From: Dehalococcoidia bacterium | GTDB lineage: Bacteria > Chloroflexota > Dehalococcoidia > Plut-88900 | DNA: 64,000 nt | Assembly: GCA_965197585.1 (NCBI GenBank) | Contig: OZ240215.1 | Span: 1,472,001-1,536,000, forward strand | Direction of reading: 5' to 3' | Shown: positions 14,004 to 15,322 of the stretch, in pieces | Layout of the letters: the number at the start of each line of letters is the position of its first letter | How positions within the stretch are numbered: the first letter of the stretch is position 1 | Translations under genes and position numbers: made by a program | The notes under the pieces: model-generated | Databases searched by the model: none | What the model saw: the letters and a program-made list of their open reading frames with translations, nothing else | Told to the model about the DNA's origin: nothing

Positions 14004-14116
14004 CAGGCTCAGGACGCTAACCAACCTTCAAACACGCGAACGTCCGACTCACTACCCACCCCACAGCCACCCCACCCCCCATTAACTATGTCATCCCGAG
14101 GCCCCGTAGCAGGAAC

Positions 14117-15250
14117 CTTGTGTGACGCAACGGTGATAGAGTTAGGCTGTCCGGGTGCGGCAGGCCGTAGGAATCATGGTCCTTCAAGACCGAGCCTTAG
14201 CTTGTGCCGCCGCACCCTCTCTCATCTAAGCCCGTACAGTTGCCCGGGTCAACAACCCGTACCTGCAAGAAAGGGATAACATGAGTCAAGACTCTGTCAT
14301 GGGTATCGACGTCGGTGGTTAGTTCCTCGACCTTCACGTCCTCCCCCAAAACCAGGCCGCCAGGCTCCCTAACGACCCTCAGGGTATCAGTGAGATCCTT
14401 CAATTGGCCAAGGACCTCAATGTCACCCTCATTGTCATGGAGTCCACCGGTGGCCTCGAGATGCCTCTCGCTTTGGAGTGTGGCCTCCATCAGATACCCA
14501 CTGCCGTTATGAACCCCAGGCAGATCAGGGACTTCGCTCGCTCCACCGGTAGACTAGCCAAGACCGATGCCATCGACGCCCACACCATCCCCCGCTTCGC
14601 CTTCACCCTCAGACCCGACGCACGCCCTCTCCCAGACCCTCAGGCTGCCCATCTCAAGGCCCCCTTCTCCCGCAGAAAGCAGCTCATCGACATGAGAACC
14701 GCCGAGTCCCTTCGCCTCAAGCGCGCCCTCGACCCTCTTCTCCCAAGCCTCCACAAACACATCCAGTTCCTCTCTCAAGAACTGGATGACCTCGACCGCG
14801 AGATAGACGACCTCATTAACTCCAACATCCTCTGGAAGGACAAGCTCCTCCTCCTCAGAAATGTCCCCGGCCTGGGCCCCGTTTCCTCCTTCACCCTCGT
14901 CGGCGCTCTCCCCGAACTCGGCTCCCTCAACCGCAGGCAGATCGCCGCCCTTGTCGGTGTCGCTCCCTTGAACAGGGACAGTGGTCGTCATAGGGGAAGA
15001 CGTTCCATATGGGGCGGTCGGGCCAACATCAGAAGCGCCCTCTACATGGCCACCATGAGCGCCAGAGTCCACAACCCTCCTATCAAGGCCTTCTATGAGC
15101 GGTTGGTCGCAGCCGGTAAGCCCGGTAAGGTGGCCTTAGTCGCCTCCATGCGTAAACTCCTCACCATCCTCAATGCTATGATCAGAGACGGAGCCTCCTG
15201 GAATCACCCCACCCGCACCTCCCCAATACCCCTCCCCCAACACAGTTGCT
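14117..15250 (+). mobile_element. IS110-family element (IS621-like, CT core) inserted in a REP-like repeat
   Basis: CT at 14117-14118 and 15249-15250. Removing the element restores tgtcatcccgaggccccgtagcaggaacCTaaggc, a variant of the window's repeat. No TIRs; non-coding left end followed by a DEDD recombinase. Confidence 0.88.
14148..14278 (+). ncRNA. Putative IS110 bridge RNA (target- and donor-binding loops); ends approximate
   Basis: Stem GGGTGCGG(14153-60)/CCGCACCC(14210-17) encloses AGGAATC (14169-75, left target) and GCCTTAG (14194-200, reverse complement of CTAAGGC). A second loop has ACAGTTGC (14236-43, donor left) and CAAG (14266-69, reverse complement of CTTG). Confidence 0.78.
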
Positions 15251-15252
15251 AA
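14281..15252 (+). pseudogene. IS110 DEDD recombinase/transposase with in-frame TAG at codon 14
   Basis: ATG 14281 gives MSQDSVMGIDVGG*FLDLHV, continuing in frame with ORF 14404..15252 (MESTGG, KTDAIDA, VPGLGP, RDSG, ALYMA, MRKLL). TAG at 14320-14322. Confidence 0.85.
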
Positions 15253-15322
15253 GGCATTCCTCCACCACCCTGCCCCTTCCGTGCAAGATCAGATGCTCGC
15301 CGTCTGCTCCCTCTCCCCACTC

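What the first reader, a model, noticed from the sequence alone, without database searches (positions are those of the whole stretch)
14089..15255. IS110 bridge RNA whose guides match the host's REP-like repeat
Seen: the element lies between two CT cores. The empty site reads ...gcAGGAAC-CT-AAGGC and the circular junction reads ...ACAGTTG-CT-TGTG. The non-coding left end has one loop with AGGAATC and GCCTTAG (target guides) and one with ACAGTTGC and CAAG (donor guides), each pair separated by a small hairpin. This is the established IS621 bridge-RNA architecture. The left target guide AGGAATC matches intact repeat copies (41727, 44204, 58279, 60810) better than the occupied site (one mismatch), and the copy at 21535 has the exact right half CTAAGGC. 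Inference: a natural RNA-guided recombinase specificity (about AGGAAT-CT-AAGG) aimed at a multi-copy intergenic repeat.
Basis: partly seen in the sequence, partly recalled or inferred. Interest (0 to 1): 0.78.

Follow-up and report, generated by a model that had tools for sequence, protein, structure and literature searches.

The report
IS110 bridge-RNA element in host repeat
This is a small mobile element of the IS110 family whose built-in guide RNA matches the spot in a common host repeat where all its copies sit; it is a well-supported new example of a mechanism already known from IS621 in E. coli.

Summary
Window 14119-15250 is an IS110-group element bounded by CT cores (14117-18, 15249-50). 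It has a 162-nt left end and a DEDD/Tnp recombinase ORF broken by TAG at codon 14.

The genome (a Dehalococcoidia MAG) holds 7 copies. All 7 lie directly after the ...AGGRAT-CT end of a 130-copy hairpin repeat.

The left end folds into two internal loops. Their stems covary across 17 relatives: 11 of 27 pairs show compensatory changes, matched by 0 of 500 shuffles.

Guides sit where IS621's do and fit their own flanks. Cognate pairs score 10.5 of 13 positions against 5.2 for non-cognate pairs. The split right donor guide and the handshake bases also fit.

A sister genome's copies carry a different right target guide, and all 7 sit at the matching GGGG-tailed repeats. A covariance model finds held-out relatives.

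Three caveats. The window copy is probably non-autonomous. No junction promoter is recognisable in this clade. No discrete RNA has been shown.

IS110 elements that target REPs through bridge RNAs are already known, so this is a new member of a known kind.

The parts
14089..14118 (+). Degenerate copy of host repeat A. It ends in the left target AGGAAC plus the left CT core (14117-14118).
   Evidence: The consensus repeat is defined. This copy has a 2-nt insertion and C instead of T before the core.
14119..15250 (+). IS110-group insertion sequence, 1132 bp counting one CT.
   Evidence: 7 genome copies; identical ends TGTGTGACG... and ...ACAGTTGCT.
14119..14280 (+). Non-coding left end. The bridge-RNA region proper is 14149-14280.
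   Evidence: CM R1 match of 136.8 bits at 14149-14280 on the + strand, the only match in the window. Stem covariation.
14153..14166 (+). 5' strand of the target-binding-loop outer stem. It pairs with 14205-14217.
   Evidence: Helix 1: 13 pairs, 7 with compensatory changes, 95.9% of cells paired.
14168..14176 (+). Left target guide (9 nt by homology). Its nucleotides 2-8 read AGGAAUC, which equals the top strand of the repeat arm plus core C.
14177..14192 (+). Small hairpin inside the target-binding loop.
   Evidence: Helix 2, 94% of cells paired.
14193..14200 (+). Right target guide. GCCUUAG is the reverse complement of CTAAGGC, a 7 of 7 match to this copy's right flank.
14201..14202 (+). Handshake guide of the target-binding loop. 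Its first nucleotide, C, pairs with donor position 7 (G).
   Evidence: 29 of 31 insertions in the family keep this pairing. The concept comes from PMC11208158.
14205..14217 (+). 3' strand of the target-binding-loop outer stem.
14236..14243 (+). Left donor guide ACAGUUGC. It equals the element's last 7 nt plus core C.
   Evidence: It covaries with the right end in L018 (ACAGCUG) and in L037/41/45 (ACGGUUG).
14245..14259 (+). Small hairpin inside the donor-binding loop.
   Evidence: Helix 4: 3 of 5 pairs show compensatory changes.
14261..14269 (+). Split right donor guide. AC (14261-62) pairs with GT at positions 13-14 of the donor (left-end nucleotides 4-5), 3 nt are skipped, then CAAG (14266-69) pairs with CTTG.
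   Evidence: AC/GT in this clade against AU/AT in relatives, and UAAG/CTTA in L028.
14270..14271 (+). Handshake guide of the donor-binding loop. Its first nucleotide, A, pairs with T at target position 7 of consensus repeats. It is mismatched at this copy's own site, which has C.
   Evidence: 27 of 31 insertions.
14281..15252 (+). Recombinase ORF (323 codons) with an in-frame TAG at 14320-14322. The stop codon TAA at 15250-15252 is made of core T plus two host bases.
15249..15255 (+). Right CT core plus the right target AAGGC.

Best explanation
Window 14119-15250 is one of seven copies of an IS110-group insertion sequence in a Dehalococcoidia genome. Its 162-nt left end encodes a bridge RNA of the IS621 type.

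The outer stem (14153-66 with 14205-17) encloses a target-binding loop. In that loop the left target guide (AGGAAUC) reads the bottom strand of the 3' arm of a host hairpin repeat plus core C. The right target guide (GCCUUAG) reads the top strand of CT plus the five bases that follow.

A second loop holds the left donor guide (ACAGUUGC, which equals the element's right end) and a split right donor guide (AC...CAAG, which reads the first bases of the left end).

By analogy with IS621, the DEDD/Ser recombinase would use this RNA to bring the circular element's joined ends together with the repeat and recombine them at the CT.

Shown by computation: the anatomy, the covariation of stems and guides, and the placement of all copies. 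Inferred: that the RNA is made, that it is bound by the recombinase, and that it directs insertion.

The window copy itself has a nonsense codon (CAG to TAG at codon 14). It probably depends on the intact 99%-identical copy c2 for recombinase.
For: 1. Protein.
- Pfam DEDD_Tnp_IS110 (E 2.3e-19) and Transposase_20 (E 2.6e-16).
- phmmer to solved IS621 (8wt6, E 4.7e-36) and ISCro4 (9t56, E 3.7e-38).
- D10, E54, D96, D99 and S234-G235 align to IS621's D11, E60, D102, D105 and S241-G242. This assumes a 2-residue offset of the PDB chain.

2. Placement.
- 7 of 7 copies in the genome follow ...AGGRAT-CT of the repeat.
- The same holds for 7 of 7 copies in G004 and 1 of 1 in G005.
- c5, c6 and c7 are identical in sequence at three different sites, which points to recent movement.

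3. Structure.
- On 17 left ends, 94.1% of cells are paired.
- 11 of 27 pairs show compensatory changes, against 2-5 when the partners are slid.
- 0 of 500 shuffles reach the observed value.

4. Guides.
- Over 13 non-core positions, cognate guide-flank pairs average 10.5, counting Watson-Crick plus wobble. Non-cognate pairs average 5.2.
- 27 of 29 cognate pairs score at least 10, against 4 of 586 non-cognate pairs.
- In the close clade, the first two non-core right-target positions are Watson-Crick in 14 of 15 copies and wobble in 1.

5. Natural retargeting.
- G004's allele GCCCCAG sits only at CT-GGGG[TC] sites (7 of 7), although 9 free A-tailed repeats exist there.
- G000's three alleles sit only at A-tailed sites (7 of 7), although 30 GGGG-tailed repeats exist there.

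6. IS621-specific details recur.
- The left donor guide is 8 nt.
- The right donor guide is split, and it covaries with the left end.
- The handshake bases pair with the non-cognate DNA in 27 of 31 and 29 of 31 insertions. They pair with the cognate DNA in 0 of 31.

7. Held-out tests.
- CM R1 finds 2 further, distant IS110 left ends in the genome (95.5 and 86.5 bits). It also finds L021 and L022, and 19 of 30 metagenome loci.
- In those metagenome loci, left flanks fit in 12 of 13 cases and right flanks in 7 of 10. Non-cognate pairs fit in 16 of 150 and 12 of 84.
Against: - No RNA has been shown. RNA-library contigs cover the left end and ORF of a 96% relative as one piece, and they could be DNA or read-through.
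- No sigma-70-like promoter is found in 13900-15400.
- The junction promoter that IS621 and 7 of 9 distant relatives have is absent in 0 of 7 representatives of this clade.
- The single-sequence fold is no more stable than shuffles (z -0.81).
- The first and ninth nucleotides of the left target guide do not pair.
- This copy's own site has a wobble at left-target position 7 and a handshake mismatch.
- The three identical copies c5-c7 sit at sites with one mismatch and one wobble in the distal right target guide. Only a 4-nt right guide is therefore firmly supported.
- Copies are related and some flanks are paralogous repeats, so the counts overstate independence.
- The recombinase gene of this copy is broken.
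Confidence: 0.9

Rival explanations
1. Dual recognition. The bridge RNA supplies base pairing, and the repeat's own hairpin (left arm ATTCC pairing with the left target GGAAT) is a second determinant read by the recombinase, as reported for ISPpu10. This adds to the best explanation rather than replacing it.
For: - The left target is the 3' arm of a hairpin whose two arms covary: 71 ATTCC/GGAAT and 32 ATCCC/GGGAT, against 6 mixed, of 130 copies.
- This is the geometry described for ISPpu10 targets (preprint 10.64898/2026.03.19.712850; abstract and section 7 read).
- 14 of 15 close-clade insertions are at well-formed repeat copies.
Against: - The window copy sits at a degenerate repeat whose arms pair at only 3 of 5 positions, so an intact hairpin is not strictly needed.
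- Distant relatives insert at unrelated sequences, and I did not test those for hairpins.
Confidence: 0.3
2. Site choice is made by the protein alone, or by the DNA hairpin alone. On this view the left-end matches to the flanks are incidental, for example bits of target captured in the element.
For: - The left-target-guide region resembles the repeat over a few extra bases (GGCCG.AGGAAUC against GGCCCCGCGAGGAATC), as a captured fragment would.
- No transcript has been shown.
Against: - The right guides are reverse complements, not copies, of the flanks.
- Guides change together with targets across 12 lineages that have unrelated target sequences.
- The handshake and split donor guide patterns fit the solved IS621 complex.
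Confidence: 0.04
3. The window copy is a dead relic. It has a nonsense codon and sits at an off-consensus site, so it no longer moves and its RNA no longer serves any purpose.
For: - TAG at codon 14, four codons after the first catalytic Asp.
- Most DNA depth in run X1 reads C, not T, at 14320 (326 of 352.6).
- No promoter was found.
Against: - Ends, stems and guides are intact and nearly identical to c2 (11 differences in 1133 columns).
- c2 could supply recombinase in trans.
- One X1 DNA contig joins 14115 to 15248, skipping exactly 1132 bp (depth 4.4, 30 letters on the shorter side). This hints that the site is also found empty in a population.
- The TAG-bearing segment also occurs in the mosaic copy c3.
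Confidence: 0.35

Closest known systems
IS621 of E. coli (IS110 group) and its bridge RNA. Sources: Durrant et al. 2024, PMC11208160, passages read; Hiraizumi et al. 2024, PMC11208158, passages read.
   Same: - DEDD plus Ser recombinase.
- CT core.
- Bridge RNA in the left end with a target loop and a donor loop.
- 9-nt left target guide position, 8-nt left donor guide, split right donor guide (2 + 4), and handshake bases.
- A REP-type repeat as the natural target.
   Different: - The proteins are distantly related (phmmer E 4.7e-36).
- No recognisable junction promoter.
- The ORF runs to the very end of the element and borrows its stop codon from the core and the target.
- The right target guide pairs over up to 7 nt here.
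- The last nucleotide of the left target guide does not match core T.
- The host is a Dehalococcoidia bacterium.
ISPpu10 of Pseudomonas putida (preprint 10.64898/2026.03.19.712850; abstract and section 7 read).
   Same: It inserts into many copies of one REP-type intergenic repeat. The sequence 5' of the left target is complementary to it and forms a stem-loop next to the core.
   Different: The role of the hairpin is untested here. One of the 7 copies (the window's) sits at a repeat with a degenerate hairpin. The host phylum and the repeat sequence are different.
ISCro4 transposase (PDB 9t56). Only the name and the alignment were seen.
   Same: It is the best solved-structure match by sequence (E 3.7e-38), aligned over residues 6-316.
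   Different: I read nothing about its RNA or its target.
Rfam RF02234 (sX15, a Xanthomonadaceae sRNA).
   Same: It is the only Rfam match. It is full length (model positions 1-159) over 14144-14292 and covers both loops.
   Different: - The match is on the minus strand and below the gathering score (35 against 55 bits).
- The model consensus contains the reverse complement of the donor-guide motif.
- In PMC3300014, sX15 has a complementary partner, asX7, and 10 homologues in Stenotrophomonas.
- It therefore looks like the antisense side of an IS110 left end. That is my inference and I did not test it.

Membership tests
IS110 family, IS110 group (bridge recombinase elements) | [quoted passage not shown] | tested here: met
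   70.1 bits (cut-off 29) and 60.2 bits (cut-off 21.3), with X read at the TAG.
IS110 family, IS110 group (bridge recombinase elements) | Catalytic D, E, D, D and Ser-Gly are conserved. | tested here: met
   alignment of the intact copy c2 to IS621. D10, E54, D96, D99 and S234-G235 face IS621's D11, E60, D102, D105 and S241-G242 (residue roles). A 2-residue offset of the chain is inferred. In the window copy the ORF is cut by TAG at codon 14.
IS110 family, IS110 group (bridge recombinase elements) | A short core dinucleotide at both junctions and no terminal inverted repeats. | tested here: met
   CT at both junctions in 7 of 7 genome copies. The ends TGTGTG... and ...ACAGTTG are not inverted repeats.
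IS110 family, IS110 group (bridge recombinase elements) | The non-coding left end is longer than the right end and carries the structured RNA. | tested here: met
   The left end is 162 nt. The right end has no non-coding part, because the ORF ends in the core. The CM match lies in the left end on the ORF strand.
IS110 family, IS110 group (bridge recombinase elements) | A two-loop secondary structure supported by covariation. | tested here: met
   11 of 27 pairs with changes on both sides, 94.1% paired, 0 of 500 shuffles, slid controls 2-5.
IS110 family, IS110 group (bridge recombinase elements) | Target-loop guides are complementary to the insertion site, and donor-loop guides to the joined ends. 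| tested here: met
   For the window copy the left guide matches at 6 of 9 positions (5 of 7 non-core plus core C) with one further wobble, the right guide at 7 of 8 (5 of 6 non-core), the left donor guide at 8 of 9, and the right donor guide at 4 + 2.
IS110 family, IS110 group (bridge recombinase elements) | Handshake bases pair with the other DNA, not with the cognate one. | tested here: met
   27 of 31 and 29 of 31 pair with the non-cognate DNA, and 0 of 31 with the cognate DNA. The window copy's own site fails the donor-loop handshake (A facing C).
IS110 family, IS110 group (bridge recombinase elements) | A promoter is rebuilt across the joined right and left ends of the circle. | tested here: not met
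   0 of 7 representatives of this clade have a sigma-70-like site at the junction. 7 of 9 distant relatives have TTGACW-17-TATNTT at one fixed offset.
IS110 family, IS110 group (bridge recombinase elements) | A discrete RNA of about 150-180 nt is made and bound by the recombinase. | tested here: inconclusive
   only assembled contigs from RNA libraries were available. They cover a 96% relative from the repeat through the ORF and cannot show RNA ends.
IS110 family, IS110 group (bridge recombinase elements) | A circular intermediate and RNA-programmed recombination. | not testable with these tools
   This needs raw reads or bench assays.
REP (repetitive extragenic palindromic) elements | A short, multi-copy palindromic repeat whose arms covary. 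| tested here: met
   130 copies in 3.43 Mb. Arm pairs: 71 ATTCC/GGAAT and 32 ATCCC/GGGAT against 6 mixed. The repeat is present in 5 of 5 congeners searched, 3 of which lack this IS.
REP (repetitive extragenic palindromic) elements | Association with a RAYT (Y1 transposase, PF01797). | tested here: not met
   no match in the genome, which is 91.9% complete. The control rang in 6 of 14 genomes. I therefore say 'REP-like'.

The most novel reading that the evidence does not exclude
Within one genus, a single young IS110 lineage shows a natural series of re-programmed right target guides. There are three alleles in this genome and a fourth in a sister genome. Each lands on a different tail variant of the same host repeat, and the U-rich allele GUCUUAG reads several purine variants by rU:dG wobble.

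The same lineage has lost the junction promoter and its own stop codon. How the recombinase terminates therefore depends on the target chosen: it stops at TAA or TAG at A-tailed sites, and it runs 21-63 codons into host DNA at GGGG-tailed sites.
Probability: 0.35. Interest if true: 0.5.

Novelty: new member of a known kind. Interest (0 to 1): 0.35.

Why it matters
It confirms that the bridge-RNA rules worked out for IS621 hold in a distant phylum. These are guide positions, the split donor guide and the handshake bases. They can be read from raw sequence well enough to predict landing sites.

The set of alleles in this genus is a ready-made natural experiment on guide re-programming and wobble tolerance. 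Intact copies (c2, c5-c7) could be tested as compact recombinases.

For genome annotation, it explains one class of insertions in a repeat that is common across the genus.

Tried and rejected
- Rfam. No bridge-RNA family reached any threshold. The only match was sX15 on the opposite strand, below its gathering score.
- Single-sequence folding. The energy is not better than shuffles (z -0.81), and the minimum-energy fold pairs the two target guides with each other. I relied on covariation instead.
- Short target motif in the window. Not above chance on its own.
- Promoter scans. Nothing in the window region or at the in-silico junction of this clade. A weak TTGCTT-17-TAGAGT across the junction is visible by eye (3 of 6 and 4 of 6 matches). 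I do not count it.
- Orthologous empty site. The upstream PD40-repeat gene is found in 8 of 8 congeners. The right flank was not found in any of the 7 fetched congener loci. In G001 the corresponding spacer holds an unoccupied repeat, but with a different tail. No strict empty-site orthologue was found.
- Sequencing runs. All four runs laid were assembled contigs. They cannot show RNA ends, strand or circles. Parts without cover and small shares are not used as evidence.
- RAYT search. None found.
- Metagenome scan. 30 loci; 28 show 27-50% protein identity over most of the protein and two are short partial matches (56% and 73% over about 55-66 residues). It gave no further close alleles. The loci were used only as held-out tests.
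- Held-out failures. Three of 10 right flanks failed (L065, L084, L067) and 1 of 13 left flanks failed (L068). I suspect boundary or register errors of my simple rules and did not resolve them.
- Excluded rows. L042 and L028 were left out of the cognate count, because their left flank is the guide-coding DNA of another partial copy.
- Structure prediction, complex prediction, the atlas and the large protein searches were not run. The family assignment was already clear.
Supplementary tables of PMC11208160 listing IS110 orthologues may already include this element or close relatives, and I could not check.
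Full report
**What is there**

Reading the window shows an element that begins TGTGTGACG... right after a CT at 14117-14118. It ends ...ACAGTTG-CT at 15249-15250 and is followed by AAGGC. Only the CT is common to both junctions. The element is therefore 14119-15250, or 1132 bp counting one CT.

From ATG 14281 an ORF of 323 codons runs to a TAA at 15250-15252. 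That stop consists of the core T and two host bases. The ORF is interrupted by TAG at 14320-14322.

With X at the TAG the protein matches Pfam DEDD_Tnp_IS110 (E 2.3e-19) and Transposase_20 (E 2.6e-16). The intact sister copy matches the solved IS621 and ISCro4 recombinases (E 4.7e-36 and 3.7e-38). The DEDD residues and the Ser-Gly are aligned (residue roles from PMC11208158).

The element lies between the 3' ends of a PD40-repeat protein gene and an amidohydrolase gene.

**Copies and their sites**

The window lies in a 3.43-Mb single-contig genome. Its relatives in the public collection are titled Dehalococcoidia MAGs. The genome holds seven copies:

- c1, the window copy.
- c2, at 99% identity: 11 differences, with CAG where c1 has TAG.
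- c3, a mosaic. Its middle is identical to c1, including the TAG, and its ends resemble c4.
- c4.
- c5, c6 and c7, which are identical to each other.

All seven follow the same host sequence...CCGAGGCYCCGCGAGGRAT-CT.

**The host repeat**

The repeat has 130 copies at up to 3 substitutions. Its two arms covary: 71 ATTCC/GGAAT and 32 ATCCC/GGGAT, against 6 mixed. After the CT it continues with a purine-rich tail (RRGRC), in classes such as AGGAC (25), AAGGC (16) and GGGGC (16).

It occurs in 5 of 5 congeneric genomes searched, three of which have no copy of this IS. It is therefore a host repeat and not part of the element. No Y1/RAYT transposase was found, so I call it REP-like.

The window's site is an atypical, degenerate copy. 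It has a 2-nt insertion, reads AGGAAC instead of AGGAAT, and its arms pair at 3 of 5 positions.

**The left-end RNA**

Seventeen left ends were aligned. They came from this genome, two sister genomes and nine more distant lineages at 42-50% protein identity.

They share a long outer stem, an internal loop split by a small hairpin, a second stem, and a second internal loop split by a hairpin. On the structure I wrote from the window copy:

- 94.1% of cells are paired.
- 11 of 27 pairs show changes on both sides, against 2-5 when partners are slid by 1-3 columns.
- 0 of 500 shuffles reach this.

The single-sequence fold is not unusually stable (z -0.81), so the support comes from covariation and not from energy.

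**Guides**

By position, the 9 nt before the first small hairpin and the 8 nt after it correspond to IS621's left and right target guides. The nucleotides flanking the second hairpin correspond to the donor guides. The published layout is a 9-nt left target guide, a 4-nt right target guide that is longer in some orthologues, an 8-nt left donor guide and a 2 + 4 nt right donor guide.

In the window copy:

- The left target guide reads UAGGAAUCA. AGGAAUC equals the repeat arm plus core C.
- The right target guide GCCUUAG is the exact reverse complement of CTAAGGC, this copy's right flank.
- The left donor guide ACAGUUGC equals the element's last seven bases plus C.
- CAAG pairs with CT plus the first two bases of the element.
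- AC, three nucleotides further upstream, pairs with GT at left-end bases 4-5 (donor positions 13-14).

Across 29 insertions in 12 lineages, cognate guide-flank pairs match at a mean of 10.5 of 13 non-core positions, counting Watson-Crick plus wobble. Non-cognate pairs from different lineages match at 5.2. 27 of 29 cognate pairs reach 10, against 4 of 586 non-cognate pairs. Two insertions into guide-coding DNA were left out of this count.

Donor guides covary with the ends:

- ACAGCUG with an ACAGCTG end.
- ACGGUUG with an ACGGTTG end.
- UAAG with a CTTA start.
- AC/GT in this clade against AU/AT in the relatives.

The base after each right guide pairs with position 7 of the other DNA in 27 of 31 insertions (donor loop with target) and 29 of 31 (target loop with donor). 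It never pairs with its own DNA (0 of 31). This is the handshake rule described for IS621.

**Natural retargeting**

The close clade shares the left guide but has four right-guide alleles. Only the G004 sites are exact 6-nt complements of their guide; most other sites fit with one wobble or one mismatch, as noted.

| Allele | Copies | Site |
|---|---|---|
| GCCUUAG | c1 | CTAAGGC |
| GUCUUAG | c2, c3, c4, G005 copy | CTAGGAC, CTAAGGC, CTAAAGC, CTAACGC |
| GCUCUAG | c5, c6, c7 | CTAGGAC |
| GCCCCAG (one copy, L017, reads UCCCCAG) | 7 of 7 copies in G004 | CTGGGG[TC] |

For GUCUUAG, the U residues allow wobble with G. G004 has 9 free A-tailed repeats and this genome has 30 GGGG-tailed ones, yet neither set is used by the other allele type. 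A 7/0 against 0/7 table has a one-sided exact probability of 1 in 3432. That is my arithmetic, and the copies are not fully independent.

The first two non-core right-target positions are Watson-Crick in 14 of 15 copies and wobble in one. Further out the fit is looser. c5-c7 have one mismatch and one wobble, so only a 4-nt right guide is firmly supported.

For the window copy's guides, the genome offers 4 free perfect 13-bp sites.

**Covariance model and held-out tests**

A model built from 17 core regions gives:

- One match in the window, at 14149-14280 on the + strand (136.8 bits).
- Nine matches in the genome: the seven copies plus two distant IS110 left ends that were not in the model (95.5 and 86.5 bits). 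Both lie directly upstream of IS110 ORFs.
- Matches to two further held-out relatives, L021 and L022.
- Matches in 19 of 30 metagenome loci. Taking guides by model position there, left flanks fit (at least 5 of 7) in 12 of 13 and right flanks (at least 5 of 6) in 7 of 10. Non-cognate pairs fit in 16 of 150 and 12 of 84.

**What does not fit, or is open**

- IS621 and 7 of 9 distant relatives here rebuild a TTGACW-17-TATNTT promoter across the joined ends. None of 7 representatives of this clade does.
- No sigma-70-like site lies in 13900-15400. How the RNA is made is unknown.
- In the distant relative I read in frame (L027), the ORF stops at a TGA inside that -35 box (read). In this clade the box is gone and the ORF runs to the core.
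- At A-tailed sites the ORF stops at TAA or TAG. In G004 the open frames continue 21-63 codons into host DNA (344-386 against 323).
- RNA-library contigs of two studies cover a 96% relative from the repeat through most of the ORF. They cannot show a discrete RNA.
- One DNA contig in run X1 joins 14115 to 15248 and skips exactly 1132 bp. This is a weak hint of an empty site in a population.
- Most X1 depth reads C at 14320. The TAG allele is therefore a minority there.

**Comparison and verdict**

This is an IS110-group element with an IS621-type bridge RNA aimed at a host REP-like repeat.

- IS621 itself inserts in E. coli REPs (PMC11208160).
- ISPpu10 inserts next to a target hairpin formed with the left target (preprint). 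The geometry here is the same.

The kind of system is known, so I rate it a new member of a known kind. It comes with a useful natural series of guide alleles and two unusual traits of the clade: no junction promoter, and a stop codon borrowed from the target.

Noticed in passing
window about 40645-41733 (ORF 40683-41645, minus strand): A second, unrelated IS of about 1056 bp with an rve-type integrase (rve_3 E 6.8e-23). It has about 21 copies in the genome. It sits inside the left arm of repeat A, with ATTCC on both sides. The same repeat copy that carries c2 also carries one of these. Two IS families therefore use this repeat.
   Followed up: partly
window 13967-14002: Another palindromic repeat (GGGGCGATTCGCGAATCGCCCC core), about 85 bp upstream of the IS. 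The same 30-35 nt recurs at many places in this genome and in its congeners (short hits to query positions about 668-703).
   Followed up: no
window 14144-14292, minus strand: Rfam sX15 (RF02234) aligns full length to the reverse complement of the bridge-RNA region (35 bits, E 0.0016). The paper that named sX15 reports a complementary partner, asX7, and 10 homologues in Stenotrophomonas. The Rfam family may be the antisense side of an IS110 left end.
   Followed up: partly
window 15250-15252; G004 loci L011-L020: The recombinase ORF has no stop codon of its own. It uses core T plus two target bases. At GGGG-tailed sites in G004 it reads on into host DNA, giving open frames of 344-386 aa against 323.
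   Followed up: partly
L042 (G003) and L028 (G029): A full element sits directly after a partial left end that stops at the guide-coding bases plus CT. It looks as if the DNA that encodes the left target guide had served as a target.
   Followed up: no
G000:C1:2796185-2797292 (copy c3): A mosaic copy. Alignment positions about 101-800 are identical to the window copy, including the TAG. Both ends resemble c4. This suggests recombination or gene conversion between copies.
   Followed up: partly
G000:C1:1850412-1851478 and 2221960-2222906: Two copies of a second, distant IS110 lineage (46-50% protein identity), each with its own bridge-RNA-like left end. One has a junction promoter-like TTGACT...TATATT and a right flank that matches its guide at 7 of 8 positions. 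The other looks truncated.
   Followed up: partly
window 14115/15248 in run X1: One DNA contig (depth 4.4) joins the two flanks and skips exactly the 1132-bp element. This is a possible empty-site allele in a population.
   Followed up: no
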